Origin: Trypanosoma brucei
Taxonomy: Eukaryota
DNA length: 64,000 nucleotides
Reading direction: 5' to 3'
Assembly: GCA_000002445.1 (NCBI GenBank)
Contig: CM000208.1
Span: 1,632,001-1,696,000, forward strand
The position numbers and the translations under genes were made by a program. Positions 1,639 to 23,386 of the stretch are shown here, one piece after another. Position 1 is the first letter of the stretch, and every line of letters starts with the position of its first letter. Under the pieces are notes generated by a model. The model was not told the DNA's origin. It saw only the letters and a program-made list of their open reading frames with translations, and searched no databases.

Positions 1639-2553
1639 ATGGATCACCCTCCCGCAGGACCGTTTGGAGGAGGGGAGTGCCGCTGCACTGGTATACGTTT
1701 TTGCCAGCACTGCATAGATTCAGATCGTGCACAGTCTATAGTCAGGCGGCACGTTTCACTCGCAAACGCATCTGATGTCGTTCTACGGCAATATACTGAC
1801 CAGCGAATGTCCTCATGCTCCTTCGCTTGCGTGGGACCTAGTCTGCTTTCTATGTGCTGCGCATGTAGGACCGTTTTTGAAACGGCTGGTGGAGTACTAA
1901 AGTGCTGCGGAGATCACAAAGGTTTTATCGCGCGAACTGATATCGAACTATCCGGATTAACGATCCAACCAGGGTTTGTTTCTCCTAATGAAGAAGAGTA
2001 CCTGGTGGCATTCTTTGATAATCCAGCCCCCTTTGCTGCCTGGAAAGTTTCACAAAGCGGAAGGAGGAAACAGGAGTACGGGCCTAAGGCCAATTTTAAG
2101 AAACGGAAGTTGAAGGTGGGTGATTTCCGAGCCTTGCCGCATCAGATGAAAACGACTCTGGACAGGGTCCGGTCCTTTGTTGCAGAACAAACGATGAGGG
2201 AATATTGTATTGTGGAAGTATCAGTTTTGGAATATACGGCTGAGTGTAGTTGTTTGGATCCTCACATCGACGACACGTGGCTATGGGGTGACCGCATTGG
2301 TGGTCTTAACTTGTTGGATGACGTTACTTTAACATTTGTGAGCGCTGATGAGGTCGCAGTGACCGTGTTTGTCCCACGTGGTGCTTTTTTTCTGCTAACC
2401 GGTGTAAGCCGCTACGAATGGATGCATGGCATACGGCGTGAGGATGTTAAAAACCGTCGTGTGTCTGTCACATTCCGGGAGTTTGCCGACAATTTGGTCG
2501 TTGATCAAGAAATACTTAAAACTATCGTAATGTCCGCTACGACATTCATTTAG
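1639..2553 (+). CDS. AlkB-like 2-oxoglutarate/Fe(II)-dependent dioxygenase (ALKBH family)
   Basis: Translation contains the HxD iron-binding motif (DPHIDDTWLW). It also has a distal His (EWMHGI) and the RxSxTxR 2OG-binding signature (RRVSVTFREF). The ALKBH-typical FVSPNEEEYL segment is present. A Cys-rich N-terminal extension means the true start could be an internal Met. Confidence 0.7.
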   Translation: MDHPPAGPFGGGECRCTGIRFCQHCIDSDRAQSIVRRHVSLANASDVVLRQYTDQRMSSCSFACVGPSLLSMCCACRTVFETAGGVLKCCGDHKGFIARTDIELSGLTIQPGFVSPNEEEYLVAFFDNPAPFAAWKVSQSGRRKQEYGPKANFKKRKLKVGDFRALPHQMKTTLDRVRSFVAEQTMREYCIVEVSVLEYTAECSCLDPHIDDTWLWGDRIGGLNLLDDVTLTFVSADEVAVTVFVPRGAFFLLTGVSRYEWMHGIRREDVKNRRVSVTFREFADNLVVDQEILKTIVMSATTFI

Positions 2554-2804
2554 TGGCGTTCTGAGTCAGCAACTCGTGTTTCTCCCCCTTAAAGGTTTTT
2601 TTGCATGCAATTGCACTTACAGCGCAGTGACGTGGTAGTTGTTTTGTTTTGCGTGACGGTGTTGGAGTATCCGATCAACTATTTCCCCCCTGATAAATTT
2701 TATGCCCTTTATATATTGTTTCTACTGATATTTTCCGTACTCTAGGTTGACGACCGGAAGGGATTTTACATCCGTGAGGATAGTAGTAAGATATTGTTTC
2801 CGCT

Positions 2805-3980
2805 ATGCTGCCTATACTAAAGGCCGGGGAAGACGAGGGGGGTCCCCGGATCCCCCCTCCTCTATGGTGTGAGGCGAAGCGTGAGGCGTTAATCGATGGC
2901 AAAGGAAAAGTTAATCTTGAGGTAATGCTTGTTCATTTTCTTCGGCAAGGACGTTTGAGCAAGCACGATGCACTCAACATAATTCAAAATGCATCAAGTG
3001 TACTTCGTACGGAACCCAACGTCCTGAGGATTGCTGATCCTTCGGTTGTAGTCGTCGGCGACGTTCGGGGACAGTTCTACGATTTAGCAAAAATTATATT
3101 TATAGGTAATATGTTCAGTAGGGCAAAAACGTATTTGTTTCTAGGTAATTATATTGACTCATGTTTTTTTAGCACCGAGTGTATACTCCTTTTGCTTGCG
3201 GCGAAACTAACCCACCCGAGTTGTGTATTTTTGCTTCGTGGAAACCATGAATGCCGTTTTATGTCGAATATTTTCGATTTTCGGGGAGAGTGTCTGAAGA
3301 AATATAATGACGATGTTTACGAAGCCATTATGACAGCGTTTGATTGTCTTCCACTGGCAGCTGTTGTAAACAATCAGTATTTTTGTGTACATGGAGGTCT
3401 TTCACCTGACGTTACGAGTGTTGACAATATTCGCTTAATTTATCGATTTCGGGAACCCCCGTCGAAAGGGGCTATGTGTGATTTATTATGGTCTGATCCG
3501 TTTTGGGATGTAGAGAATCCGTCGTCAGTTTGCGAAGGTTCTAGAGATGATTATTACACCCCTGGAAATGGCCCATCGTACGGTACGGCGCCATGCTTTC
3601 TTGACAACGAGCAGAGAGGTTGCAGTTATTTGTTTAACTATCATAGTGTAAAGCACTTTTTGTTGACGAATGGTCTTCTTTGCGTCGTACGTAGCCATGA
3701 GGTTCAAGATGATGGTTATAAGTTGTATAGGTTCAACAGTGTTTCCAATTTTCCGTGCATGATGTCCGTTTTTTCTGCCCCTAATTACTGTGATAACTTG
3801 CACAACAAGGGTGCAGTCCTCATTCTTGAGGGGAAACAAATAGGTATAAAGCAGTTTTGTTGCTCGCCTCATCCTTATGTTCTCCCAAAGCATCTTAACG
3901 CATTTGAATGGTCATTCTCTTACCTGTTGGATAGTGTTCGCGACATATTTGCTTCCATCATTTCGTGTGAGGGAGCATGA
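2805..3980 (+). CDS. PPP-family Ser/Thr phosphatase-like protein with degenerate catalytic motifs (predicted pseudophosphatase)
   Basis: The PPP fold signatures GNHE, HGG (CVHGGLSP), LLWSDP, RSHE and SAPNYC are present. The metal-binding motifs are altered: GDxHG reads GDVRGQ (His->Arg) and GDxVDRG reads GNYIDSC (Asp->Asn, Arg->Ser). Confidence 0.75.
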   Translation: MLPILKAGEDEGGPRIPPPLWCEAKREALIDGKGKVNLEVMLVHFLRQGRLSKHDALNIIQNASSVLRTEPNVLRIADPSVVVVGDVRGQFYDLAKIIFIGNMFSRAKTYLFLGNYIDSCFFSTECILLLLAAKLTHPSCVFLLRGNHECRFMSNIFDFRGECLKKYNDDVYEAIMTAFDCLPLAAVVNNQYFCVHGGLSPDVTSVDNIRLIYRFREPPSKGAMCDLLWSDPFWDVENPSSVCEGSRDDYYTPGNGPSYGTAPCFLDNEQRGCSYLFNYHSVKHFLLTNGLLCVVRSHEVQDDGYKLYRFNSVSNFPCMMSVFSAPNYCDNLHNKGAVLILEGKQIGIKQFCCSPHPYVLPKHLNAFEWSFSYLLDSVRDIFASIISCEGA

Positions 3981-6900
3981 TGAGACTCAAGTTTCCTGTT
4001 TGTAGAACTTACATTGTCGACCCCCTTTCCGTTCTATGCCTACGAGTGCCAGCAGCGAGAGGGTATATATACGCACATATAAGCTTCTTTCTTTTATCTC
4101 GCATTTTTGATTTTAACACCGCTCCGTTGTATTTAGGTGTGGGTTAGTATTTAGTTTAAAATTCTTTCAAGTCCTCTCAACTCAGCCAGGGTCGTAAAGA
4201 GCAAGACACAGAGGGGAAAGCTGCCCTATAATCGCCTGTGGCGCATTTTCATGAGTCCTCATTAGGTGTTCCTGCGCCAGCGGCCAAAACATTGCATCAT
4301 TCCGTCGCCGTATGGAACCAACAATTGTGAAAAAAAAAAAGGATTTAATCGGGGGATCCCCTTGGAGCAGATCACTGTTATGAGGTTTATTATGAGTGTT
4401 GCGAACAGGGAAACAGCTGGTGATGTTTATAGACGTTCTGCTTTGGTATTGAGTATATGATTGCTGTACCAACTGCCATGAGGCAGTCATTAATACTTTT
4501 TTTGACTTTTAATTCGTTCTTTGATCAAAAGTGTACGTGTATGGAATCATCTTGAATATTTGGAGAATTAATCATACGTCCGGAAGATTTGAATATAGTA
4601 ACTTCTTCTACCAGAGACCGAAATACCGGGATGTGTGATTTTATGCGGTTGCCGCTGGGAGCACGCTTCTATGCGTGCCTTTTACGAGGGCGCCTACGTT
4701 GTTGCAAGTGTGATCTGTGCGGCATTTACTCGTACAGCGGAGAGCGGGGATATCGCTTCTGGGGTATGCGGGAACGGGACATTGAATGCCTTCTTTTCAT
4801 CGTTAACACTCAACTTATTGAACATCTGTAGATGTCAAAGGGTGCCGATGCCGACTGATCATCGAGATAGCGACGGAGTTACCGTTGTTCCCTGGAGTGA
4901 TGTCCGATTTTACCAAATATGAGAGGAGGAGGTCTGTGTTTTCTCTTTTGACCGGACCGGTTATGAAATGAGTGATTTACCACTGCATTCAGCATGTGCA
5001 ATGACAGCAGTAAGGTTTGTAACTCCGCTTAAATCACCACGAGTATGTGAGTGCTCGTGTGATATGTTGTACTGCGCAAGAAAGAAACACGTGGACCCAA
5101 TTCCTGCCGTATCGACCCTCGGCAAAAACGTTTCGAGCACCTCTTCGTTAAATATACGCTTGTGGATGGGCTTGAACGAGAGCGTTCGGCATCAAGATAT
5201 ATGTTTCCTGTGTAGGTAAAGACAATAGATTCGAAGTTGACGTTTCCAGAAGTGTGCAACACGCTGTGGGAAGATTCCACTGGAAGCTGCATAATTTTGT
5301 TATGTACAGATGCCGTAGGTTCATTCGGTTGCTTCTAGAACCTCGTTGGAGGATTAGATAGGCATACAGGGAGTACGCCGTTGCTTGCTCGAGGTTATAG
5401 TGCACCTCCTGTTGACACGAACGGACATACGCACGTGTGTGAACACGAAGTGCCCTTCAAACCTTAAGGATTCGATGTTTCAGTCTACTTTATCATGCTG
5501 AGGGGTTAAACTGACCTATGCGTTTTTGCACTTGGGTGTGGTTTTAGAATTCTTTGAGAGGCGGGATATTAGCATGCAGTGCCTCTGTGCTCTATATCTT
5601 CCATGCACATCCGGTCTGGTGAATGACCCTATCTCTTTACTACGCGGTGTCATGCGGCTTATACTGACAGTTGTTAACTCTGGTGCATCCTGCTGGCGTG
5701 TTAATGGCCCTCGTTGAGCGGTGAGATGTGGAGCTCCCCTCCTTTTCAAGTGGTTCTGTAAATGGTGGCTAATCGTAACTCATTCTACAGATTTGCAGCT
5801 ATGTTTTTTCCGCAGGCGCGCTGTGCAGAGATGTGTGATGCTTACAGGTGGATACCACATACTGCTCCGTTGCTGTGCGGGTTATGCTTGGGATGCAGAC
5901 ATGGAAGGGTTGGGGAATACTGACTTCCACGATGTGGGTGGCGTTAACGCTGACGAAGAAAAATATTGTTTTTGTAGATTGATTGTCAAACGAGCTGCGC
6001 GGGTGGCGTGGTGGGGGAAGGGCGTTGTTTTATTCTCTGTGTCGCTCAAGCGCTAGATCATGCACTTGAAGGAGTGTCCACCAGCGTCATCGGTGGGGTG
6101 GCTGCGCCCTTCGTTGACCATCTACATGTTTGGGTCGAAATCACTGGCGTTGTCGTCTGCTGTATTCGTGTTGGATTGCTTTACGATGGGGCGGAAGCAA
6201 CGACTCCTCTCAGCAGTGGTAAATGTTCCTCTGACGTTGCGTCTGATGCTGTATTTCTCAGCTTCATACAAGGGGGAGGAACCGAGATTACCACCATCTA
6301 CATGTGTTCTTGGGTCTTCACAGGGCAACAATTTTCTTCTTTTACCCGGCGCCTTTGCGGAGAGTGGCTGCACCACGTTCTTCCCAGGTCGAGAGGGCTT
6401 AATGAGTGAATTACAGGATGAATTGTGGCTACAGTTGCCGTCGAGGCTACTGATTTTAGCTAGATTAGATTTAGCGAACTTTTTATTTGCAGTTGTAGGT
6501 CGTTTGCCGAATAGTGGGATCAACCTCTTTCAGCAAAGGCCCCCTTCATCACTGGCAGTTTTACCCAAACGTTGCATGGGCATGACTCTTGTTGCCCTTA
6601 CAACGTTGTAACTCCTCGCGGAAATGTCTCGATTGTGTCTCTTTCGTATGGACACTTCATTTGGAGGAGGTTTTATCCCTTTTTTCTGATAAATTGATTT
6701 GTTGCAGCAACCTCGTCGTCCCCCAACATGAGTTGCACGGATCAATATTAAAGTGGAAAGAAGGGGTGCTACGACGCAGTGCTTTTGGTCGATGTCGGTA
6801 AGGTATCGCTTTGCTTCGCACTACAGGTTTTTTGTTTGGGGGTATTGCGCGGACGGTGTGTTTGTGTGTGTGTGAAAAGACTATGGGGGTAGCGAAGAAG

Positions 6901-9318: not shown

Positions 9319-9804
9319 ATGTCTGTCGCACCAAAACGTACGGCCGAGTTGCTGTGGCTAGAGCAGCAGCGGGCGAGGCAGTATGAACAGCATCGGAAAC
9401 GTGTGGAGCAACAGAAACCATGTGTCGACAACAAGACTCCCCGAAATCTAAGCTTGAGCAACAAGCGCGCCCTCATGGAACAAGAACGACGAAAATGCAT
9501 TGACGAGGAAAACAGACGGTTAGTTGTGAATATGTCCGCTATTATGGAACGTGGAGGCGGCATCGACAACAAGGAACCTTGGCGTCGTACCAACGGCCCC
9601 CGCGACGCAGAAATTCGTCGGAGAAGAGAACAGCAAAAGCTTGCGGAGGAGAACTTAAAATTACTTCACCGTTTAGAGAACGTCAAGCCTGTGTATCGCC
9701 TTGAAAAGTGGGAAATGGAGCGAGATGAAAACGAGATACTCGTCGACCGAATCAGCCGCTACCCGTATATACCAATGAATAGAAGGAAGGGCGTGGGTGA
9801 GTAG
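9319..9804 (+). CDS. hypothetical highly charged (R/E/K-rich) small protein
   Basis: 161-aa ATG-initiated ORF, same strand as its neighbours. Strongly basic/acidic low-complexity composition. No recognisable domain. Confidence 0.35.
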   Translation: MSVAPKRTAELLWLEQQRARQYEQHRKRVEQQKPCVDNKTPRNLSLSNKRALMEQERRKCIDEENRRLVVNMSAIMERGGGIDNKEPWRRTNGPRDAEIRRRREQQKLAEENLKLLHRLENVKPVYRLEKWEMERDENEILVDRISRYPYIPMNRRKGVGE

Positions 9805-10327
9805 TAGATAATGTTCTGCAGCCCCACTCTGCGTGCTGGCTGTTACTTCTTTGCAAGTACTTAGTCGCCCACTTTTACCCCTCTCCCTTGGGCTGCGGCA
9901 TCCTTTTTTTTTTTTTTAGCAGGCTACCGCTCCACTTATGTATGTATTCTGTGAAGTTTACTAGAGACCCTGCATATTTTATCCGTGTGGCGTCTCAAGT
10001 CGTGGCCCACCCGCCATATATGTGAGCACACACGCATATATAAATATATATATGAATCTGATTGTTTGTGAAATAGATGTGTCAACTACTGGGGAAAGAG
10101 CAACGACACAAACGGAGGAAACGCCACTCACTTAGCCGACGTTGTCTTTCTCGTGCCTTTTTTTTACGGTCTAACATATGGCAGCTCACAAACTCGTTAA
10201 TATATGAATTTTTTGCACACGTATCAAATCTTCTTTACTCCTTTTCTTTACGGGGTGCAGCTTCCAATTCACACAGAACAAATAAATAAGCATCCATACA
10301 CAGTTGCAAGGGCTAAGTGTCCGATCG

Positions 10328-11689
10328 ATGGTTGTGAATTCTGATGGGGTGCTTAAGGACAACTACACAGATGATCAAACATCGGAAGAAGACCCTAACG
10401 GTGATAACATAAGGACAAACAGGTCAAGCGATGATGGCCCAAGGAGGGGCATAATGAGATTTACTGAGCCGCTGTTTAGTCGGGTGATACCACACGGTGG
10501 AACCCTTTCCAACACTTTCACTTTTGCCTCGGCTACCCTCGGTGGAAGCATAGTCGCCCTGCCATGGGCTTTCCACGCGGTGGGAATAGTGATGGGTACC
10601 GTCTACCTGTTTTTGATGACATTAGTGACTGCATACACCGTCACCATTATTGGATTTGTCATGAAGAAGTCGCGATTCAGTGGCTTCGAGCAGATGTCCC
10701 TAGTTGTGCTGGGCCGGGGTGCTGCCTACTTGATGTCCGTTGTTATGGGCGCCAGTTGTCTTGGTGCTGCTGTCGCTTATGTCATCGCCGTGCGCACTTT
10801 GCTTGAACCGCTACTGCAGCAGTCTCCGTTGACGTCAAATTTTTTTGGAACGACCGCGGGTGTCCGCCTAACAACATTTTTTGTTTGGCTGTTGGGGATG
10901 CTTCCGCTTGTTCTGCCAAAACAGATCAATTCCCTGCGCTACTTCTCGGCGATTGGAGTAGTTTGTGTGGTTTACTTTTCAGTCGCCATAATTGCACACG
11001 CCACTATGGCTGGAGTACCGAAGCGTGGTGACGTTTCAATGTTTCAGGGTGGAAACATCGCAGTTGAGGGATTTGGTATTTTTATCTTTGCGTATCTATG
11101 TCATTGTGTTGCATTCCAAACATACTATGAAATGAGGATTCCCAGTGTGAGAAAATTATTTATTTCAACTACCATCGCCATGATATTTTGCTCTGTACTG
11201 TACTGGTTTGCAGGCGTGTTCGCCTATTTGGAGTTCGGCCCGGAGGTTAAAGACTCAGTGTTGTACATGTATGATCCCATCAGTGATCCCATGATGTTCG
11301 TTGCGTACGTGGGGCTCGTTGCCAAATTATGTGTTTCCTACGCGATGAATATGCTTCCTTTGCGAAACACAGTGTATTTCCTCCTTCAGTGGGAGATTCA
11401 GCAGCTACCATATTGGAAGCACACAGCTGTAGTGACGGTAATGTCCATATTGGTACTTATTTGTGGCATTTTCTTTCCCAAGATCAGCACTGTGTTTGGT
11501 TTCGTAGGCTCTGTTTGTGGCGGCCTCATTGGCTTTATTTACCCCGCTCTTTTCTACATGTATTCAGGAAACTGGTCATTGGCGACTGTTGGATGGTTTC
11601 ACTACATCATGACCTACTGCGTCTTAATGCTTGGTGTCGCCAGCGTGGTGTTCGGCACGGCGGCGACGATTTATGCGATTATCAATTAG
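10328..11689 (+). CDS. amino acid transporter (AAAP / Aa_trans family)
   Basis: ORF 10304..11689 starts at TTG. The first ATG is at 10328. After a hydrophilic N-terminal tail there are about 11 hydrophobic segments. The FTEPLFSRVIPHGGTLSNTFTFASATLGGSIVALPWAF motif region is typical of trypanosomatid amino-acid permeases. Confidence 0.8.
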   Translation: MVVNSDGVLKDNYTDDQTSEEDPNGDNIRTNRSSDDGPRRGIMRFTEPLFSRVIPHGGTLSNTFTFASATLGGSIVALPWAFHAVGIVMGTVYLFLMTLVTAYTVTIIGFVMKKSRFSGFEQMSLVVLGRGAAYLMSVVMGASCLGAAVAYVIAVRTLLEPLLQQSPLTSNFFGTTAGVRLTTFFVWLLGMLPLVLPKQINSLRYFSAIGVVCVVYFSVAIIAHATMAGVPKRGDVSMFQGGNIAVEGFGIFIFAYLCHCVAFQTYYEMRIPSVRKLFISTTIAMIFCSVLYWFAGVFAYLEFGPEVKDSVLYMYDPISDPMMFVAYVGLVAKLCVSYAMNMLPLRNTVYFLLQWEIQQLPYWKHTAVVTVMSILVLICGIFFPKISTVFGFVGSVCGGLIGFIYPALFYMYSGNWSLATVGWFHYIMTYCVLMLGVASVVFGTAATIYAIIN

Positions 11690-12447: not shown

Positions 12448-14136
12448 ATGTTCCGCTGTGTCGTCCGTTTTGGTGCCAAAGACATCCGTTTTGGCACGGA
12501 AGCACGTCAATCTATGCTGAAGGGCGTACAACGCGCTGTGGAGGCTGTTGCAACGACCCTTGGGCCTAAGGGACGTAACGTGATTATCGAGCAATCGTAC
12601 GGTGCTCCGAAGATCACGAAGGATGGTGTAACCGTTGCGAAGTCGATCGAGTTCAAGGACCCGTTTGAGAACATGGGTGCGCAGCTCGTGCGGCAGGTGT
12701 GCAATAAGACAAATGACCTCGCGGGTGATGGAACGACGACATCGGCTGTCCTCGTTGCAAGCATCTTTAGCGAGGGTATCAAATCGATTGCAACCGGGAC
12801 GAATCCCATTGACATGAAGCGTGGTATGGACCGCGCCGTGGAGGTGATCCTGAAGAACATCGAATCTCAGAGCCGAACGGTAACAAATACGGAGAACGTT
12901 GTGCAGGTTGCGACGATTTCCGCGAACGGTGATGTTGAACTCGGCAAGCTGATTGGGGAGGCGATGGAGAAGGTGGGGAAGGATGGCGTGATCACAACAC
13001 AAGATGGGAAGACATTGACGACTGAGCTGGAAGTTGTGGAAGGCATGAGTGTGGACCGCGGTTACATCAGCCCGTACTTCGTAACTGACGCGAAGACTCA
13101 GAAGGCCGAGCTTGAAGATGCGTTCGTGCTTGTGTCTGCAAAGAAGTTGAACAACATTCATACGATCTTACCGGTGTTGAATCACGTGGTGCGCAGTGGG
13201 CGACCATTGCTGATCATTGCGGATGATGTGGAGAGTGAGGCCCTGACGACGATGATTTTCAATAAACTTCAAGGAAAGCTAAAGATTGCGTGCGTGAAGG
13301 CTCCAGGTTTCGGGGACAACAAGGCTGCGATGCTGCAAGACATCGCCATTTTCAGTGGTGCCTGCGTTGTTGGTGAGGAAGGCAGTGGTGTGGAACTTGA
13401 CGCTGAGAAATTCGACGCCAGCATCTTGGGGAGTGTGAAGAAGGCAACAATCACGAAGGACGATACAGTACTGTTGAACGGTGGTGGCGACGTTGCGATG
13501 ATGAAAGAACGCGTGGACCTGCTGCGCGGGCTCATTGAGCGCGAGACGAGTGACTATAACCGCGAGAAGCTTCAAGAACGTCTTGCAAAACTGAGTGGTG
13601 GCGTTGCCGTAATCCGCGTTGGTGGTGCTTCTGAGGTGGAGGTGAACGAGAAGAAGGACCGCATCACAGATGCCCTGTGCTCGACCCGCGCTGCGGTGCA
13701 GGAAGGCATTGTCCCTGGTGGTGGCGCTGCGTTGCTGCGTGCGAGCAAAGCATTGGACGGATTACTACAGGATCAGTCACTCACCGCTGATCAACGGACT
13801 GGCGTGCAGATCATCCGTAACGCGGTGCGGTTGCCCGCCCACCGCATTGTTGCCAATGCTGGAAGGGAAGGTGCTGTTGTTGTTGAGAAGGTGCTCGAGA
13901 ACACTGATGCCGCTGTTGGTTACGATGCGCAGCTTGATCGCTACGTGAACATGTTTGAAGCCGGAATAATCGACCCCGCGCGTGTGGTTCGTGTTGCGCT
14001 TACTGACGCTGCGTCTGTTGCCAGCCTCATGATGACGGCAGAGGCCGCGGTTGTGGATTTACCGAAGGATGATGCACCTGCTGCAGGTGGTATGGGAGGC
14101 ATGGGTGGTATGGGAGGTATGGACGGCATGTATTGA
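12448..14136 (+). CDS. HSP60: mitochondrial chaperonin HSP60 (GroEL/Cpn60)
   Basis: 562-aa protein carrying the GroEL signature block [16 protein letters not shown]. It ends in the characteristic [16 protein letters not shown] repeat. The N-terminal presequence ([11 protein letters not shown]) is consistent with mitochondrial targeting. Confidence 0.97.
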
Positions 14137-14511: not shown

Positions 14512-16305
14512 ATGGACGGTGGCTTCCCTTGGACCAAACACGTGGAATGGAACCGTTTTCGAAACTTAGGTGAAGGTGTTGGTGGGTTTAAAGGCTTTAG
14601 GTGTTGTGGGGGCGGTCAAATGCGTGGTCTATGTGGCACGGAGCTCAGTGTGTGTTGTGACTGTTGTTTAGCTGTTAACGAGAGCGTACATAATCGCCTT
14701 GCGGTTGGCTTGAAAAGGGCAACACCTGAGCCGTTGTGGCAGCCCACCCGTTTAACTTCACCGTACTGCATTTTGTGTGCGAATGGCCTTCGGGATGATT
14801 TCTACACTTCGTGTATGTCCTGGGGTAGGGAAAGTGTTGCCCTCTCTTTGGGTGAAAAAGTCCTTTTGTTTAAATCGTCTTCCCCACGTGAGAGTGCGGT
14901 TTCTCTGAATTTGAGCGGGGAAGCCTGCGGTTATTCAGAGTCAATATCATCAGTAGCTGTTTCCCAGTTTTCGGATTCTCATTGCTTTCTTGGCGGCGTA
15001 AATGGGGCTGTTGGGTTGTATGAGTCACATGGGGGTGGAGAATTATCACTATCGAGCTCCTTTGAGATGCCGCCCCCTCTCTTTGGGGGTGATTTGGCTT
15101 CCGAGGCTGCTTTTAGTGGTGCAACCACCAGTATACGCTGCCTATCGACAACTAATGTTCATCCGTGGGTGGTAGCTGCCGGGACGGCGGCGCATGGACT
15201 TTTTGTACTTGATAGCCGTTTTACAACCCCTGCTGCACGGATGTGTGGCTCCGACCTGTGGAACTCAGTTGATTGTAGACATTCTCAGAGACCACTGTAT
15301 CCTTCTGAGGCGATTTCGCTGCTTTCGTCTTTGAATGGCATTTGCGGTGTGTCGTGGAACTCGTCTGGTTCCCTGGTTGCGACAGGGGAAAGTGGCGGCT
15401 TGGTGAACATATGGTCCCTTTCTAACACTCGTTCTCCTGTGCAGCGGATTAGATTGCCCAGCGCTCATACGACGGTGAAGGCCGTTGCGTTTCACCCGAC
15501 CAACCCATACGAGCTAGTTCTTGGTGGGGCTGCAGATGATGGCTGTGTCCGCGTTTATGATGTCTCATCTGCGACGCCGCATTACAAGTGGGGCGTATCT
15601 ACGGGATGCCAAGTGACACAGGCATTGTATTCTCCTGACGGTTCATTCATTGTTTCTGCACACGGCGCACGGCTCAAGGCCAGTGTAGCCATTGACGCGG
15701 CCAGTGCTCAGTCGCACGCGACAAGAGCCGGTGTATCGCGTACTGATAGCGGTGGAGGGGGTTGGGGAGCAGGTGATGAGTTGCAGTGGTTGACAGAGAA
15801 GTTTGAGCGGGCTATGAAATGTAGCGAGAATGCGGCAGAGTCCTCGATCGACACGTGTTTAGGGTTCAACAGGGCGTCGAGTTCTGGACTGAACGAGGCT
15901 AAGCCCTTATTGTCGGAGGCGCCACCTTTCTCTCTTGTGATGTGGAGGAAAGGTACGCAGCACCAGGGAACGACCCCAATGAGTTTCACCCACGGGAGTG
16001 GTATCCATCATCAGTGTGCCGCAGGTTCACCTTCACGCCGGTGTGAACCACTTCCACTTGTTTCTATGTACACGATGATGGGCCATCGATCGCGACCGCT
16101 GCAACTTGCAGTCCCTTTCTCACAAACTGCAGACCAGGGCTGTATTGCCTCAATCGCTGGCGGTGCTGATTGTACAATTCGGTTCTGGAAGTGTTTTTAT
16201 TCTAGAAGCGAAATGGTAAACTGGGGGCAGCGTGTGTGCGCCTCGTTAAGGACTGCGATCACAGAAGAGGATGTTGAAGAAATGACGGCCATGCCTCTGC
16301 GCTAA
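14512..16305 (+). CDS. CDC20/Fizzy-family WD40 protein (APC/C co-activator-like)
   Basis: WD-repeat blades show Cdc20-like blocks: ICGVSWNSSGSLVATGESGGLVNIWS, HTTVKAVAFHPTNPYELVLGGAADDGCVRVYDV and SPDGSFIVSAHG. A long insertion precedes the last blade (ADCTIRFWKCF). The protein ends in LR, resembling the IR tail of Cdc20/Cdh1. Confidence 0.6.
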   Translation: MDGGFPWTKHVEWNRFRNLGEGVGGFKGFRCCGGGQMRGLCGTELSVCCDCCLAVNESVHNRLAVGLKRATPEPLWQPTRLTSPYCILCANGLRDDFYTSCMSWGRESVALSLGEKVLLFKSSSPRESAVSLNLSGEACGYSESISSVAVSQFSDSHCFLGGVNGAVGLYESHGGGELSLSSSFEMPPPLFGGDLASEAAFSGATTSIRCLSTTNVHPWVVAAGTAAHGLFVLDSRFTTPAARMCGSDLWNSVDCRHSQRPLYPSEAISLLSSLNGICGVSWNSSGSLVATGESGGLVNIWSLSNTRSPVQRIRLPSAHTTVKAVAFHPTNPYELVLGGAADDGCVRVYDVSSATPHYKWGVSTGCQVTQALYSPDGSFIVSAHGARLKASVAIDAASAQSHATRAGVSRTDSGGGGWGAGDELQWLTEKFERAMKCSENAAESSIDTCLGFNRASSSGLNEAKPLLSEAPPFSLVMWRKGTQHQGTTPMSFTHGSGIHHQCAAGSPSRRCEPLPLVSMYTMMGHRSRPLQLAVPFSQTADQGCIASIAGGADCTIRFWKCFYSRSEMVNWGQRVCASLRTAITEEDVEEMTAMPLR

Positions 16306-16999: not shown

Positions 17000-18214
17000 A
17001 TGGAGTATCGGTGGCTGAATAGGGTTCTCACTGTGGAATTATGCATGTCCATCATAGCCTTTCATCTCGTGCATTTCACCGGAATCGACTGGAATGCTTA
17101 CATGCAGGAGGTGAAGGGCTTTCTGGATGGGGAGCTCGACTACATGAAGTTGAAGGGTGACACCGGCCCTTTGGTGTACCCCGGCGGTTTCGTATGGTCC
17201 CATTCCGCACTTTATTTCATGACGAAAGGTGGTGTTGATGTCGAGATGGCACAGTGGCTGTACTTGGGGATCTATGTGATGGTGCTGGTGTTAGTTGCAC
17301 ATTTGTACTACAACTCGGGGCTTCGTGGGAGGTTGTTCATTCGTCTCCTCCTTTCCAAGCGAATCCGGTCACTCTTCATGTTCCGGCTCTTCAACGATTG
17401 TTGGGCCATGTTTCTGGTCTACTTGTCGGTTATCTGTTTCGCCAGGGGGCGGCGATGGACTGTTGGATGTTTGTTGTACAGTATGGCCGTGTCAGTAAAA
17501 ATGAACATTTTTCTCTTTGCTCCTGGTCTTCTACTGATTCTGTGCAAATCACTTCCTTTTACCGGGGTGGTCAGATGTCTCGCAGTGTGTGCATTGTGGC
17601 AAGTAGTTGCGGGGCTGCCCTTTCTTCTCCACAATCCACGGTCATATATTGTACGGTCGTTTGACCTTGGTCGTGTATTCACGTATCGATGGACTGTCAA
17701 TTTCAAGCGCATCTCGGAAGAGATATTTTTTTCGTCCAAGTTTAGCAGGAGTTTGTTGGTGATGCTAGCTGTCAGCTGGTTGTTAGTGTGTTTCCGGCGT
17801 TGGTCCAAGCGTGCTTACCGGCGTGGCCGGTGTGAGAAGCGAGAGGGGACTGTGGTACTTGTGGGTGCGTCAGATGAAGAGGTCTTTCACAATGTCACCT
17901 TAACCCTGATGGAGTCTAATATGATCGGCGTTATCTTCGCTCGTTCATTACACTATCAGTTTTTTCTGTGGTTTTTCTACTTCGTACCGTTTGTCCTCTC
18001 TGCCACACGACTACCGCTGGTGGTGAAAGTGGTTGCCTTTTTAGCAATCCAATACGGATTCGAGGTGTACCCGAGCACAACCGCGTCATCCAGTGTTCTT
18101 CTGAGTGGCTTTTTGTGTGTGTGGCTGGGCATGCTCCTTTTTCCCTCTGAATATAGCGAGACTACTGGAAAAGAGACGACGATAACCCTTACAGCTGTGA
18201 AAAGGGGAAAGTAG
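17000..18214 (+). CDS. ALG3: ALG3 dolichyl-P-Man:Man5GlcNAc2-PP-dolichol alpha-1,3-mannosyltransferase
   Basis: Multi-pass membrane protein. The conserved ALG3 N-terminal block GIDWNAYMQEVKGFLDGELDYMKLKGDTGPLVYPGGFVW matches. Numerous hydrophobic segments follow. Confidence 0.8.
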   Translation: MEYRWLNRVLTVELCMSIIAFHLVHFTGIDWNAYMQEVKGFLDGELDYMKLKGDTGPLVYPGGFVWSHSALYFMTKGGVDVEMAQWLYLGIYVMVLVLVAHLYYNSGLRGRLFIRLLLSKRIRSLFMFRLFNDCWAMFLVYLSVICFARGRRWTVGCLLYSMAVSVKMNIFLFAPGLLLILCKSLPFTGVVRCLAVCALWQVVAGLPFLLHNPRSYIVRSFDLGRVFTYRWTVNFKRISEEIFFSSKFSRSLLVMLAVSWLLVCFRRWSKRAYRRGRCEKREGTVVLVGASDEEVFHNVTLTLMESNMIGVIFARSLHYQFFLWFFYFVPFVLSATRLPLVVKVVAFLAIQYGFEVYPSTTASSSVLLSGFLCVWLGMLLFPSEYSETTGKETTITLTAVKRGK

Positions 18215-18840: not shown

Positions 18841-20754
18841 ATGGGATTCTTCTCGTTTAAGAGCAACGAGAAACTGAAAAGTGGCGCTGATGGAAGGAAT
18901 GCCACCGGAAGTGGAAGTATCAAACCGTCTGGTCCCACCGATGGCGACGGCGGATTCTCAGGTTCGTCCGGCCGTCCTGTTGCACTAACTGCAGAGGAAC
19001 ATCACGAGGGCGTCGACCCACTAGGATATATGTCACACTTGCCCGTCACTGATATCATAGAGCTCTACACCAGTTTCCGCAACTCACTGCAGGAGTGCCC
19101 CGATCTTGTGCAAAAGAGGTATTTCGTGAGCACCGTGAAGACTCTTTCCTCCCAAATGAAACTGAGAGATTTCAGTGAAAAGAGTATCAGCACACATGAC
19201 GGCACAAAACTGCCGATAGTTAAGCGTGTCTTGAGGGAAGTTCCTTCCGTGCGCTCGCGGCTAGCACTTGCGTTGCAAAATTTCTGTCACGTCACCGATT
19301 GGGAGCTGGAAAATGAGGAAATCGAGTGCGGAACTGGTCTTCTTGCCACTCTCCGTGGCGAGTCATCGCGCTTGAGGAGCGGCCATGAAGTAGATGAGGG
19401 CGAGAGTGCGGCCAGATTGATCCCGCGTATGGATTCCTTTGATCCAACCCATATATACAACCTGGTTTCGACAACTGATAAGTTACCTTCGATGCAGGAG
19501 ATGGCCGAACTGATCCGGAGGACGAATGAGTTGCTCCTTCAGGAGGTTAACGTTGTGCTGGTGTCTGCACCATGCGTTGTGGTAGGTGACATACATGGAC
19601 AGAAAAAGGATCTCATAGACAATGTTCTTGCGGCGGGTGGGCCAATAGCCCCGTGCGGCACCGATGCGGTACCCGAGGGTAAACCTGATGATGGAGCAGC
19701 GAAACCCGCAGGGCGGAATTACTTATTTCTAGGGGATATCGTCGACCGAGGTCCAGAAAGCTTGGGTTGCCTCGCGCTTTTGTTTGCTGCTAAGCTAATG
19801 GCACCCAAAAGCGTTCATCTTCTCCGGGGGAATCACGAGAGCTCTGAGACAAACCGCAATTATGGTTTCCTGAGAGAGTGCTGGGAGCGGTACCCGATTA
19901 ATAGTCCGGGGGGCGGTGGTCCTACAGCCTGTACTGGTGGTAACACCGCAATGGACTGCGTGTGGGAGCTTCAAAGTCATCCCCTGTGGGTACTGGCGAA
20001 TGAGACGTTCCGCAGTCTTCCTCTTTGTGCAGTTGTGACAGGGGAGGCTGCCTCTCCTTCTGCTCTCCCCAATTGCGGCAAACACAGGGAAGGTGACCGT
20101 CAGGGCGGCCTCACTTTGTGTGCGATGCATGGTGGCCTTTCGCCTTTCATCGCCGAGAGTCTCGACGGTATTTTGGCTGTTAATCGGTTCCGTGACATTG
20201 TCGATGGTCCACTTGCGGACCTAACGTGGGCCGATCCCGTATCAGCGCTGGCTCTGTTTTCTCCTGGAAATGTAGCTGCTGCGGCAACAACAGCTGGAAA
20301 TGTCGGAAGTGAATTGAGCGATACCAACAACGGTGCCCCGCCTCAACAGCAAGAAGGAAGGTTTCAACATCATCGCATGGCCGTCCAGCGCAGTGAACCC
20401 GTTCCCACAACCAGCGCGACTGTTGGCCACGTGCTAAGCTCCAGAGGCCGCGGTCACAATTTCGGTGAGGACGTAACGCTGCGGTTCCTTCGGAAGAATA
20501 AAATGGATTTTATTGTGCGTGCCCATCAGTGTGTGATGGAGGGTTATGAGTGGCAGCACCAGCGGCGGCTTTTGACGCTATTTTCCGCCCCCAATTACTG
20601 CGGCTGCGGCAACAAGGGTGCTATTCTCATCGTACACGAACGCGGAGACCCCGAGCTGGTGCAGTTTGAAGCAGCTGGTATTCAGATTTGCGGTGCCATT
20701 GCGGCAGTGAGTCCGAAACCGTCACCGGTCCCACCAAAGGAATTTTGTAGTTAA
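18841..20754 (+). CDS. PPP-family Ser/Thr protein phosphatase with kinetoplastid-type extensions/insertions
   Basis: ORF 18766 starts at TTG. The first ATG is at 18841. All PPP catalytic motifs are intact: GDIHGQ, GDIVDRG, GNHE, HGG (CAMHGGLSP), LTWADP, RAHQ and SAPNYCG. There is a ~250-aa N-terminal extension and a ~100-aa insertion between GNHE and HGG. Confidence 0.85.
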   Translation: MGFFSFKSNEKLKSGADGRNATGSGSIKPSGPTDGDGGFSGSSGRPVALTAEEHHEGVDPLGYMSHLPVTDIIELYTSFRNSLQECPDLVQKRYFVSTVKTLSSQMKLRDFSEKSISTHDGTKLPIVKRVLREVPSVRSRLALALQNFCHVTDWELENEEIECGTGLLATLRGESSRLRSGHEVDEGESAARLIPRMDSFDPTHIYNLVSTTDKLPSMQEMAELIRRTNELLLQEVNVVLVSAPCVVVGDIHGQKKDLIDNVLAAGGPIAPCGTDAVPEGKPDDGAAKPAGRNYLFLGDIVDRGPESLGCLALLFAAKLMAPKSVHLLRGNHESSETNRNYGFLRECWERYPINSPGGGGPTACTGGNTAMDCVWELQSHPLWVLANETFRSLPLCAVVTGEAASPSALPNCGKHREGDRQGGLTLCAMHGGLSPFIAESLDGILAVNRFRDIVDGPLADLTWADPVSALALFSPGNVAAAATTAGNVGSELSDTNNGAPPQQQEGRFQHHRMAVQRSEPVPTTSATVGHVLSSRGRGHNFGEDVTLRFLRKNKMDFIVRAHQCVMEGYEWQHQRRLLTLFSAPNYCGCGNKGAILIVHERGDPELVQFEAAGIQICGAIAAVSPKPSPVPPKEFCS

Positions 20755-22663: not shown

Positions 22664-23386
22664 ATGCCGCAGCTGCGGGTGGAGTATGCCAAGTCCGGAC
22701 GCGCGAAGTGCTCTGCCGCATCGTGCAATAAACCGATCTCCAAGCACGAGGTGCGCGTTGGCATTGCCGTTATGTTCCAACCCGTGGGGAGCACTAGCGG
22801 TGAACCAACTCTGTCTTACAAGTGGCGTCATGTCTGTTGTTTCACTGAGCGTCAAATAAAGAACGCTGAAGCTGAGGGTGGACTCGACGCTATTGAGGGC
22901 CTTGAAGAACTGGCGGAGGTGGATAGAGATCTTATAGCACAAATGATGCGCGGGGAGTTGATTGACCGGATGGATGTTATGGGGCGCGTTGGAGATGTCG
23001 AGAACTCGCCTGCCAGCCGTGGTTCCCTAAAGGGAGAGAAGTTTTCCCATTCCGACGGGAGGGCCGCGACAAAACGCAAACGAGGTGATGGGTCCGAGTC
23101 AAGGGAGACGGGTTCTCCACCAGACCTATCAAAAAGAGGCAAGTCCAAAAAGGGTGGTGTGGTCAGCCTGACCCCCAGTCGTGACAAAGATACGAATGAG
23201 GGTGAGATATCAGATTCTACAACAGAGGAGTTTGAAGTTTCCGTTGAGGCGACGAGACCACCTTGCCCATACGGCAAGGAGTGCTTCCGCACCAGCGTGA
23301 GCCACATGGCAGAGTATTCTCACGGGGCAGAATCCGACAGGGCGGTGCCAGCGCGGCTTCGGGCTGTTATAAGGCATTCAGTTTAA
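22664..23386 (+). CDS. zf-PARP (PARP-type zinc finger) plus PBZ (PAR-binding C2H2 zinc finger) protein; putative DNA-break/PAR sensor
   Basis: The N-terminus (VEYAKSGRAKCSAASCNKPISKHEVRVG...WRHVCCF) matches the PARP1/LIG3 zinc-finger consensus EYAKSGRAxCxxC...W.H..CF. The C-terminus (PPCPYGKECFRTSVSHMAEYSHG) fits the PBZ pattern C-x5-C-x6-H-x5-H. A K/R/S-rich linker separates them. Confidence 0.75.
   Translation: MPQLRVEYAKSGRAKCSAASCNKPISKHEVRVGIAVMFQPVGSTSGEPTLSYKWRHVCCFTERQIKNAEAEGGLDAIEGLEELAEVDRDLIAQMMRGELIDRMDVMGRVGDVENSPASRGSLKGEKFSHSDGRAATKRKRGDGSESRETGSPPDLSKRGKSKKGGVVSLTPSRDKDTNEGEISDSTTEEFEVSVEATRPPCPYGKECFRTSVSHMAEYSHGAESDRAVPARLRAVIRHSV

What the first reader, a model, noticed from the sequence alone, without database searches (positions are those of the whole stretch)
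2805..3980. PPP-family phosphatase paralogue with substituted metal-coordinating residues (predicted pseudophosphatase)
The fold-defining motifs GNHE, HGG, LLWSDP, RxH and SAPNYC are all retained. The two motifs that ligate the binuclear metal centre are changed: GDxHG reads GDVRGQ and GDxVDRG reads GNYIDSC. The invariant His and Asp of motif 1-2 and the phosphate-binding Arg are therefore lost. A second PPP gene 15 kb downstream on the same strand (18841..20754) keeps every catalytic residue. This suggests a retained but catalytically dead paralogue that may act as a scaffold, substrate trap or regulator.
Basis: partly seen in the sequence, partly recalled or inferred. Interest (0 to 1): 0.55.

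Follow-up and report, generated by a model that had tools for sequence, protein, structure and literature searches.

The report
Trypanosome calcineurin A2 with degraded active site
The gene is the Trypanosoma brucei copy of "calcineurin A2", an expressed, strongly conserved calcineurin-like protein that has lost key metal- and phosphate-binding residues and so probably works without normal phosphatase chemistry, as the trypanosome literature has suggested since 2007.

Summary
ORF 2805..3980 (+) encodes an intact 391-aa protein. It reads GDVRGQ and GNYIDSC where canonical PPPs read GDxHGQ and GDxVDRG (human calcineurin H92->R88, D118->N115, R122->S119, G123->C120). GNHE, HGG, R254, H281 and SAPNY are kept.

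It is not a generic PPP. It is the orthologue of trypanosomatid calcineurin A2 (TbCaNA2, Tb927.10.6460), and it ends just after the calcineurin-B-binding helix.

- **Expression:** the mRNA is trans-spliced.
- **Conservation:** gene order is conserved in seven other Trypanosoma species.
- **Selection:** dN/dS is about 0.09, the same as the neighbouring phosphomannomutase gene.
- **Active-site erosion:** all 33 trypanosomatid-type A2 sequences have lost D118. They then lost different further catalytic residues lineage by lineage. Bodo saltans keeps an A2-type protein with every catalytic residue.

This pattern supports a selected pseudophosphatase. It most likely acts through calcineurin B or docking interactions.

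Three qualifications apply. Brenchley et al. 2007 already flagged this cluster as possible pseudophosphatases. The T. cruzi orthologue was reported to hydrolyse pNPP. The "second PPP" at 18841..20754 is an unrelated kinetoplastid PPP (26% identity), not the active sister; that is CaNA1 on another chromosome.

Verdict: real, ordinary and already known.

The parts
2744..2745 (+). AG trans-splice acceptor, preceded by a pyrimidine-rich tract
   Evidence: Assembled transcript contig L008 starts with the 3' 27 nt of the spliced leader (TATTAGAACAGTTTCTGTACTATATTG). It then matches the window from 2746 onward. The spliced-leader fragment is absent from the window.
2746..2804 (+). 5' UTR (59 nt) of the mature mRNA
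   Evidence: L008 positions 28-86 are identical to window 2746-2804.
2805..3980 (+). CDS of calcineurin A2-like protein (391 aa plus stop); orthologue of TbCaNA2/TcCaNA2
   Evidence: Intact ORF. Pfam Metallophos E 6.7e-29. Best solved relatives are calcineurin A at about 1e-104, against PP1/PP5 at about 1e-55. Orthologues are 80% (T. congolense) to 67% identical and are named 'PP2B catalytic subunit A2'. The AlphaFold model's top 36 Foldseek hits are all calcineurin A.
3057..3074 (+). Motif 1, GDVRGQ: D86 kept, metal ligand His (human H92) replaced by R88
   Evidence: Arg is kept in all 9 Trypanosoma sequences through synonymous codon changes (CGG/CGC/CGT/AGA).
3144..3164 (+). Motif 2, GNYIDSC: bridging Asp (D118) -> N115, phosphate-binding Arg (R122) -> S119, G123 -> C120; D121 kept as D118
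   Evidence: N occurs at this position in 32 of 33 degenerate sequences. Ser119 is encoded by TCA here and by AGT in T. vivax, so the two losses were probably independent.
3240..3251 (+). Motif 3, GNHE: N147 (M2 ligand) and H148 (general acid) retained
   Evidence: These residues are lost in T. congolense (GNNES) and Leishmaniinae (GSNES).
3390..3398 (+). HGG: H196 (human H199, M2 ligand) retained
3522..3584 (+). Insertion of about 20 aa (SSVCEGSRDDYYTPGNGPSYG) after LLWSDP, specific to kinetoplastid A2-type calcineurins
   Evidence: The loop is 38-41 residues against 20-21 in canonical calcineurins. It is shared with catalytically intact Bodo-type proteins. dN/dS is 0.145. It is modelled with low confidence (pLDDT < 50).
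3687..3701 (+). VRSHE: H298 (human H281, M2 ligand) retained; R271 (human R254) lies upstream at NEQRG
3774..3791 (+). SAPNYC motif retained
3888..3968 (+). C-terminal amphipathic helix homologous to the calcineurin-B-binding helix. It includes W369/S370/Y373 (human W352/S353/F356). The protein ends 3 residues later, with no calmodulin-binding or autoinhibitory segment.
   Evidence: Alignment to human CnA 346-372. W and S are invariant in 33/33 degenerate sequences, and F/Y is 29/4. The AF2 model has a helix at 366-388. The tail after human position 373 is 2 residues, against 149 in human.

Best explanation
The gene is the T. brucei-group orthologue of trypanosomatid calcineurin A2 (TbCaNA2, Tb927.10.6460). 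It belongs to a kinetoplastid-specific paralogue of the calcineurin catalytic subunit. This paralogue has a loop insertion of about 20 aa and no calmodulin-binding or autoinhibitory tail.

**Shown.** The gene is expressed as a trans-spliced mRNA. The calcineurin fold, the calcineurin-B-binding helix and the W/S/F(Y) pocket residues are conserved. The whole protein is under purifying selection as strong as that on a housekeeping enzyme. The M1 metal site has lost two of its three protein ligands (H92->R, bridging D118->N), and the phosphate-binding R122 is Ser. The loss of D118 arose once, at the base of the trypanosomatid A2 clade, after the split from Bodo. Independent losses of other catalytic residues followed.

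**Inferred.** The protein no longer carries out normal binuclear-metal phosphoester hydrolysis. It is kept for a non-catalytic role. The most likely role is as a calcineurin-B-binding (hence Ca2+-responsive) partner, scaffold or decoy that modulates or competes with CaNA1/CaNB signalling. The altered but conserved pocket (Arg88 in place of the M1 metal, plus R271, H148 and a possible single M2 metal) may still bind phospho-ligands.
For: - **Calcineurin identity:**
- **Substitutions at homologous, otherwise invariant columns:** (87/87 canonical sequences invariant at all 11 catalytic-motif positions).
- **Expression:** spliced-leader-containing contig.
- **Conserved gene order** (PMM, 2OG-oxygenase-like, CaNA2) in 7 species.
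- **Purifying selection:** dN/dS is 0.07-0.14 for CaNA2 and 0.06-0.12 for PMM in unsaturated pairs. Pooled values are 0.09 for the whole gene, 0.07-0.08 for the core, 0.145 for the insert and 0.147 for the helix.
- **Altered residues are themselves conserved:** Arg88 and Asn115 are kept through synonymous codon turnover.
- **Erosion of other catalytic positions in 33 degenerate sequences**: H92 is Q12/R9/H7/N3/C1/E1; D121 is G23/D9/E1; R122 is N11/G9/R7/S6; N150 is N14/S13/P5/C1; H151 is N17/H16.
- **Single origin:** the degenerate sequences form one clade (100% bootstrap). It sits inside a larger insert-bearing clade (100%) that includes catalytically intact Bodo saltans CUE73349.1.
- **CnB-helix and pocket residues conserved:**
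- **Literature:** the cluster was flagged as possible pseudophosphatases (PMC2175518). TcCaNA2 associates with CaNB (PMC3907409). [quoted passage not shown]
Against: - Recombinant T. cruzi CaNA2 was reported to hydrolyse pNPP, stimulated by Mn2+/Ni2+ and inhibited by EGTA (PMC3907409, Figure 4). The 2025 Expression of Concern covers Figures 3, 5 and 7, not that assay (PMC12136285).
- Motif-based pseudophosphatase calls can be wrong. Yeast Ppn2 is active despite a non-canonical motif 2 (PMC13216928).
- D86, N147, H148, H196, R271 and H298 are all retained in T. brucei, so one metal site (M2) and the general acid could still work.
- Within the genus Trypanosoma the altered site is well conserved. 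That would also fit a modified catalytic site.
- CnB binding, metal content and activity were not tested for the T. brucei protein. The AF2 model is poor for residues 216-274, next to the active site.
- The expected effect of H92R/D118N/R122S on catalysis rests on my recollection of PP1, lambda phosphatase and calcineurin mutagenesis. I did not retrieve a paper for it.
Confidence: 0.6

Rival explanations
1. It is still a working phosphatase with a non-canonical active site. It would use a single metal or a loosely bound Mn2+/Ni2+ pair, be constitutively active because it has no autoinhibitory tail, and provide a calmodulin-independent calcineurin activity in the cytoplasm.
For: pNPP activity was reported for the T. 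cruzi orthologue (PMC3907409). D86, N147, H148, H196, R271 and H298 are retained. The altered site is conserved within Trypanosoma. Strong purifying selection acts on the core.
Against: - Two of the three M1 ligands and the phosphate-binding Arg are replaced at columns that are invariant in 87/87 canonical sequences.
- Sister lineages of the same clade have additionally lost the general acid H151 (17/33), N150 (19/33) and D121 (24/33). One sequence has even lost D90 and H199. All keep the fold. This is hard to reconcile with conserved catalysis.
- T. brucei lacks R122, which the assayed T. cruzi protein has.
- The assay used 80 mM pNPP and E. coli-derived protein, with no active-site mutant control described in the text I read.
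Confidence: 0.22
2. It is a neofunctionalised ligand-binding module. With Arg88 occupying the M1 metal position, the pocket binds phosphorylated proteins or small phosphate-containing ligands without hydrolysing them (a natural substrate trap or phospho-reader), largely independent of calcineurin B.
For: Arg88 and Asn115 are fixed and held by selection in all Trypanosoma sequences. R271, H148, H196 and H298 are retained. The substrate-trap idea for kinetoplastid pseudophosphatases appears in PMC2994645.
Against: The phosphate-binding R122 is lost in T. brucei and T. vivax. Position 92 is Q/N/C/E/H in other lineages, so the pocket is not conserved across the clade. No structural or binding data exist. 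The CnB-binding helix is conserved.
Confidence: 0.12
3. It is a decaying pseudogene or an annotation or sequencing artefact.
For: T. brucei carries extra substitutions (S119, C120) beyond those in most other Trypanosoma species.
Against: The ORF is intact in 9 Trypanosoma species and many other trypanosomatids. dN/dS is about 0.09. The mRNA is trans-spliced. The sequence is identical in independent assemblies.
Confidence: 0.02

Closest known systems
TcCaNA2 (Trypanosoma cruzi calcineurin A2; HM854297; Orrego et al. 2014, PMC3907409)
   Same: It is the orthologue: 68% identity, conserved gene order, and the same length (392 vs 391 aa). It has the same H92->R and D118->N changes, the same insertion of about 20 aa, and the same truncation after the CnB-binding helix.
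   Different: T. cruzi keeps R122 (GNYTDRS). T. brucei has GNYIDSC. T. cruzi has experimental data (pNPP activity, CaNB association, antisense phenotypes), part of which is under an Expression of Concern. None was found for T. brucei.
Canonical calcineurin A (human PPP3CA; TbCaNA1 Tb927.9.1540)
   Same: Same fold and subfamily (E about 1e-104; Foldseek TM 0.75-0.91). GNHE, HGG, R254, H281, SAPNY, the CnB-binding helix and W352/S353 are conserved.
   Different: H92R, D118N, R122S and G123C. An extra loop of about 20 aa. No calmodulin-binding or autoinhibitory domains. PxIxIT-groove N330 is replaced by Gly, and F346 by His.
Bodo saltans A2-type calcineurin (CUE73349.1, cluster of P0019)
   Same: It shares the loop insertion and a short tail. 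It groups with the trypanosomatid A2 clade (100% bootstrap).
   Different: It keeps all catalytic residues (GDIHGQ, GDYVDRG, GNHE). It therefore represents the pre-degeneration state.
Kinetoplastid-specific PPP pseudophosphatases (kPPP; Brenchley et al. 2007, Szoor 2010)
   Same: They are PPP-fold proteins of trypanosomatids with substituted catalytic residues, proposed to act as substrate traps or scaffolds.
   Different: Those are long-branch, family-unassigned PPPs. This one is a clear calcineurin with an identifiable regulatory partner site.
VPS29 (retromer subunit with metallophosphoesterase fold) and PTP-fold pseudophosphatases (STYX, inactive myotubularins)
   Same: They are phosphatase folds kept for protein-protein interaction after loss of catalytic residues. 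This is from my own knowledge. STYX and the myotubularins are also described in PMC2175518.
   Different: They belong to different families and have different partners. The resemblance is in principle only. No sequence relationship was tested.

Membership tests
Calcineurin A (PP2B/PPP3 catalytic subunit) | PPP catalytic domain closer to PP2B than to PP1/PP2A/PP5 | tested here: met
   phmmer against PDB gives calcineurin A about 1e-104 and PP1/PP5 about 1e-55. The top 36 Foldseek hits are calcineurin A. The NJ tree places it among calcineurins.
Calcineurin A (PP2B/PPP3 catalytic subunit) | Complete binuclear metal centre and phosphate-binding residues (D90, H92, D118, N150, H199, H281; R122, R254, H151) | tested here: not met
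   H92->R88, D118->N115 and R122->S119. The other six are retained.
Calcineurin A (PP2B/PPP3 catalytic subunit) | Calcineurin-B-binding helix after the catalytic domain | tested here: met
   Residues 362-388 align to human 346-372 with the hydrophobic pattern kept. W352 and S353 are invariant. The AF2 model has a helix at 366-388. Physical binding was not testable here. It is reported for the T. cruzi orthologue (PMC3907409).
Calcineurin A (PP2B/PPP3 catalytic subunit) | Calmodulin-binding segment and autoinhibitory domain | tested here: not met
   The protein ends 2-3 residues after the helix. Human has 149 residues there.
Calcineurin A (PP2B/PPP3 catalytic subunit) | Substrate docking sites (PxIxIT groove N330/I331/R332; LxVP pocket W352/F356) | tested here: inconclusive
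   NIR reads GIK (N330 lost, I kept, R->K). W352 is kept and F356->Y. F346, invariant in canonical sequences, is His. The list of docking residues is from my own knowledge.
Trypanosomatid calcineurin A2 (CaNA2) orthologue group | Orthology: best hits, conserved gene order, shared insertion, shared D118N | tested here: met
   67-80% identity to proteins named 'PP2B catalytic subunit A2' or 'calcineurin A2'. PMM, 2OG-oxygenase-like and CaNA2 lie in the same order in 7 species. The insertion is shared. The clade has 100% bootstrap support.
Pseudophosphatase (pseudoenzyme) | Phosphatase fold retained with substitutions at residues required for catalysis | tested here: met
Pseudophosphatase (pseudoenzyme) | Maintained by purifying selection and expressed (not a pseudogene) | tested here: met
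   dN/dS is about 0.09. The mRNA is trans-spliced.
Pseudophosphatase (pseudoenzyme) | Absence of phosphatase activity | not testable with these tools
   No data exist for T. brucei. The T. cruzi orthologue was reported active on pNPP (PMC3907409). Erosion of further catalytic residues across the clade argues indirectly for loss of catalytic constraint.

The most novel reading that the evidence does not exclude
Trypanosomatid CaNA2 would be a true calcineurin pseudophosphatase: a PPP-family catalytic subunit turned into a non-enzymatic, calcineurin-B-bound (Ca2+-sensing) signalling module. The transition would be datable. Bodo saltans is catalytically intact. A single D118N change occurred in the trypanosomatid stem. 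Stepwise, convergent erosion of the remaining catalytic residues followed. In Trypanosoma, an arginine is fixed where the M1 metal sat. That would make it a clean natural system for studying how a metallophosphatase becomes a pseudoenzyme, and a parasite-specific regulator of Ca2+ signalling.
Probability: 0.45. Interest if true: 0.5.

Novelty: already known. Interest (0 to 1): 0.3.

Why it matters
Calcineurin is a central Ca2+ effector and a drug target. [quoted passage not shown]

If CaNA2 is a non-catalytic partner of calcineurin B, two things follow. Inhibitor studies in trypanosomatids (CsA, FK506) would need re-reading. The parasite would also have a lineage-specific regulator of Ca2+ signalling.

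The gene and the pseudophosphatase suggestion are already published.
- a single origin after the Bodo split;
- convergent erosion of the catalytic residues;
- purifying selection equal to that on a housekeeping gene;
- direct evidence that the gene is expressed.

Tried and rejected
- **T. congolense DNA.** This is the closest relative outside the T. brucei group (80% aa identity). I sought its coding DNA for an unsaturated T. brucei-branch dN/dS, but it is not on record. All T. brucei pairs are saturated at synonymous sites (pS 0.73-0.85), so the selection estimate comes from other Trypanosoma pairs.
- **Tree building.** Biopython NJ with bootstrap timed out. I replaced it with a numpy NJ using 300 bootstraps.
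- **Mutagenesis literature.** A full-text search for mutagenesis of the PPP metal ligands gave nothing usable. The expected severity of H92R/D118N/R122S is therefore from memory.
- **T. brucei functional data.** Searches for functional work on Tb927.10.6460 found only one in-silico paper.
- **Rejected: pseudogene decay.** The ORF is intact, selection is strong and the mRNA is trans-spliced.
- **Rejected: the gene at 18841 as the active sister paralogue.** It is only 26% identical and PP2A/PP1-like.
- **Rejected: misalignment of the R/N/S positions.** The flanks are ungapped and conserved, and the columns are invariant in canonical sequences.
- **Structure model.** The model could not be used to inspect side-chain geometry because no coordinates are returned. 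It is also unreliable for residues 216-274.
Full report
**1. What is there**

Window 2805..3980 (+) is an uninterrupted ORF of 391 codons plus a stop. It matches Pfam Metallophos (E 6.7e-29).

The protein is not a generic PPP.
- Against all solved structures, its best relatives are calcineurin A chains. E is about 5e-104, aligned over residues 23-387 to human residues 33-373.
- PP1 and PP5 follow at about 1e-55.
- An AlphaFold2 model was built from 19 aligned sequences (mean pLDDT 76, pTM 0.78). It is very confident for residues 20-190 and poor for 216-274. Its 36 best Foldseek hits in the PDB are all calcineurin A, with TM 0.75-0.91.

**2. Are the substitutions at the true ligand positions?**

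Yes. The HMMER alignment is ungapped across both motifs.

Its numbering was verified at 17 landmark residues. The window protein has the following residues at the human landmark columns:

| Human calcineurin A | Window protein |
|---|---|
| D90 | D86 |
| H92 | R88 |
| D118 | N115 |
| D121 | D118 |
| R122 | S119 |
| G123 | C120 |
| N150 | N147 |
| H151 | H148 |
| H199 | H196 |
| R254 | R271 |
| H281 | H298 |

All eleven columns are 100% invariant in 87 catalytically canonical calcineurin A sequences from across eukaryotes.

By the established calcineurin and PP1 structures (my knowledge), D90/H92/D118 ligate metal M1 and D118/N150/H199/H281 ligate metal M2. So M1 has lost two of its three protein ligands. 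The bridging carboxylate is an amide. The phosphate-binding R122 is gone. The M2 ligands, the general acid H151 and R254 remain.

**3. Identity**

The closest proteins come from T. congolense (80%), T. vivax (75%), T. melophagium, T. cruzi, T. conorhini, T. rangeli, T. theileri and T. grayi (67-73%). Most are named 'PP2B catalytic subunit A2' or 'calcineurin A2' by their sources.

The window is therefore from the T. brucei group. The gene corresponds to TbCaNA2, Tb927.10.6460 (the identifier is given in PMC8470620).

The gene order phosphomannomutase, 2OG-oxygenase-like, CaNA2 is the same in the window and in seven other Trypanosoma genomes.

The protein stops 2-3 residues after the segment homologous to the calcineurin-B-binding helix. 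It has no calmodulin-binding or autoinhibitory region.

**4. Expressed and selected, not decaying**

*Expression.* Two short contigs assembled from public runs (ERR7929162 and ERR7929161) encode the same protein, with one difference (A391G).
- One contig begins with the last 27 nt of the trypanosome spliced leader. I identified this sequence from my own knowledge.
- It joins the genome sequence at 2746, directly after an AG at 2744-2745 that follows a pyrimidine-rich tract.
- The leader fragment does not occur in the window.
- The gene therefore yields a trans-spliced mRNA with a 59-nt 5' UTR.

*Selection.* Nei-Gojobori dN/dS was computed for the species pairs that are not saturated (T. cruzi/rangeli/conorhini and T. 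melophagium/theileri).
- CaNA2 gives 0.07-0.14.
- The adjacent phosphomannomutase gene gives 0.06-0.12, which is indistinguishable. The adjacent oxygenase-like gene gives 0.11-0.30, generally higher.
- Pooled by region, dN/dS is 0.06-0.08 for the catalytic core, 0.145 for the lineage-specific insert, 0.147 for the C-terminal helix and 0.37 for the first 22 residues.
- All pairs involving T. brucei are saturated at synonymous sites. Their dN is 0.18-0.25, between phosphomannomutase (0.16-0.18) and the oxygenase-like gene (0.32-0.39).

*The altered residues are themselves conserved.* Arg88 is encoded by CGG, CGC, CGT or AGA in different species. Asn115 is encoded by AAT or AAC.

**5. The evolutionary pattern of the active site**

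Among the 120 best database relatives, 33 non-redundant sequences lack D118. N is present in 32 of them.

| Position (human) | Residues in the 33 degenerate sequences |
|---|---|
| H92 | Q12, R9, H7, N3, C1, E1 |
| D121 | G23, D9, E1 |
| R122 | N11, G9, R7, S6 |
| N150 | N14, S13, P5, C1 |
| H151 | N17, H16 |
| D90, H199, R254, H281 | retained in 32/33 |

Lineage examples:
- Most Trypanosoma have GDIRGQ / GNYxDRS / GNHE.
- T. brucei and T. vivax have additionally lost R122. They use different serine codon families (TCA vs AGT), which implies independent events.
- T. congolense keeps R122 but has GNNES.
- Leishmaniinae have GDxQGQ / GNYIGNGG / GSNES.

Of 86 columns that are at least 97% invariant in canonical calcineurins, 56 are kept in the degenerate clade. 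Seven of the 11 catalytic-motif columns are among the 30 not kept (Fisher p = 0.044).

I built a neighbour-joining tree from 337 columns, excluding the insert and the catalytic columns.
- The 19 degenerate sequences included form one clade (100% of 300 bootstraps).
- That clade sits inside a larger clade (100%) of proteins sharing the loop insertion of about 20 aa but retaining every catalytic residue.
- One of these intact proteins is in the same 90%-identity cluster as Bodo saltans CUE73349.1. I checked the Bodo protein directly: GDIHGQ, GDYVDRG, GNHE.
- A second Bodo calcineurin without the insert lies outside this clade.

The A1/A2 duplication and the insertion therefore predate trypanosomatids. 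D118N occurred once on the trypanosomatid stem. The other catalytic residues then decayed independently while the fold stayed under strong constraint. This is the signature expected of a pseudoenzyme rather than of an enzyme with a modified but conserved mechanism.

**6. What is conserved instead**

- W352 and S353 are invariant (33/33). F356 is F29/Y4.
- The hydrophobic positions of the calcineurin-B-binding helix stay hydrophobic.
- SAPN and N317 are invariant.
- By contrast, PxIxIT-groove N330 is variable (Gly in T. brucei).
- F346 and K360, both nearly invariant in canonical calcineurins, are replaced throughout the clade.
- The insert contains a conserved Y-x-P-x-x-G-x-x-(Y/F) core. Its structure could not be modelled.

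**7. Most likely mechanism**

*Shown:* the fold, the expression, the selection, the disrupted M1 site and phosphate-binding Arg, the retained B-subunit helix, and the absence of the calmodulin-binding and autoinhibitory tail.

*Inferred:* the protein does not perform normal PPP catalysis. It works through interactions, most plausibly as a calcineurin-B-bound, Ca2+-responsive partner that scaffolds or competes with the canonical CaNA1/CaNB enzyme. Its altered pocket may still bind phospho-ligands.

I give about 0.6 to the pseudophosphatase reading as a whole. The specific CnB-scaffold or decoy mechanism is less certain.

*Main rival (about 0.2): residual or non-canonical activity.*
- Orrego et al. 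2014 reported Mn2+/Ni2+-stimulated pNPP hydrolysis by recombinant TcCaNA2, and association with TcCaNB (PMC3907409).
- That paper carries a 2025 Expression of Concern about blot figures 3, 5 and 7. The concern about Figure 5B was considered resolved, and the activity figure is not among those listed (PMC12136285).
- The T. cruzi protein retains R122. The T. brucei protein does not.
- Yeast Ppn2 shows that motif-based calls can be wrong (PMC13216928).

**8. Relation to the rest of the finding**

The gene at 18841..20754 does keep all catalytic residues. However, it is only 26% identical to CaNA2, with 30% gaps. Its nearest solved relatives are PP2A and PP1 (about 1e-41). It is a separate kinetoplastid PPP with large insertions, not the sister of CaNA2. 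The canonical paralogue is CaNA1 (Tb927.9.1540), on another chromosome (PMC8470620).

**9. Novelty**

- Brenchley et al. [quoted passage not shown]
- Szoor 2010, Orrego 2014 and the 2021 in-silico study repeat or discuss this.
- New here are the wider comparative picture (section 5), the selection estimates and the transcript evidence.
- I found no functional study of the T. brucei gene.

Verdict: real, correctly observed and already known. Interest 0.3.

Noticed in passing
window 3981-6059: There is a stretch of about 2 kb after CaNA2 with no ORF of 150 aa or more. In T. cruzi, T. rangeli, T. conorhini, T. theileri, T. melophagium and T. grayi, a gene of about 1008-1033 aa follows CaNA2 within about 150-400 bp. 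That gene has no tblastn match anywhere in the window (E <= 1e-3). The T. vivax locus also lacks it. It may have been lost or relocated in salivarian trypanosomes.
   Followed up: partly
window 1639-2553 (+): A Cys-rich 304-aa protein with a weak AlkB-like 2OG-Fe(II) oxygenase match (PF13532, E 1.3e-5, below the gathering score). It is syntenic upstream of CaNA2 in all Trypanosoma loci fetched. It evolves faster than its neighbours (dN 0.32-0.39 against T. brucei).
   Followed up: partly
window 18841-20754 (+): A 637-aa kinetoplastid PPP with all catalytic motifs intact. It has a long N-terminal extension and two large low-complexity insertions inside the catalytic domain. Its nearest solved relatives are PP2A and PP1 (about 1e-41), and BSU1 is also among the hits.
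   Followed up: partly
window 3156-3158 (Ser119 codon) and L001/T. vivax equivalent: The phosphate-binding Arg is replaced by Ser in both T. brucei (TCA) and T. vivax (AGT). T. congolense keeps Arg but has lost the general-acid His (GNNES). These look like independent extra hits on the active site within Salivaria.
   Followed up: yes
window 3976 (CDS nt 1172); L008, L009: Both transcript-derived contigs carry G instead of C here, which changes the last residue (A391G). This is presumably a strain polymorphism.
   Followed up: no
window 1-24000 (ORFs); 1-64000 (GC skew): All but two ORFs of at least 150 aa in the first 24 kb are on the + strand. The two on the - strand overlap longer + strand ORFs. 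GC skew is positive in 30 of 32 windows of 2 kb. This fits a single polycistronic transcription unit. Pfam context: PMM 551-1291, CFAP97-like 9319-9804, amino-acid transporter 10304-11689, TCP-1 chaperonin subunit 12448-14136, CDC20-like WD40 14512-16305, ALG3 17000-18214, zf-PARP+PBZ protein 22664-23386.
   Followed up: partly
L010 599-1789 (Bodo saltans CYKH01000148.1): The NCBI gene model of the Bodo A2-type calcineurin (396 aa) diverges from the 421-424-aa cluster members at its C-terminus, just where the CnB-binding helix should be. This is probably a gene-model or assembly problem rather than biology.
   Followed up: no
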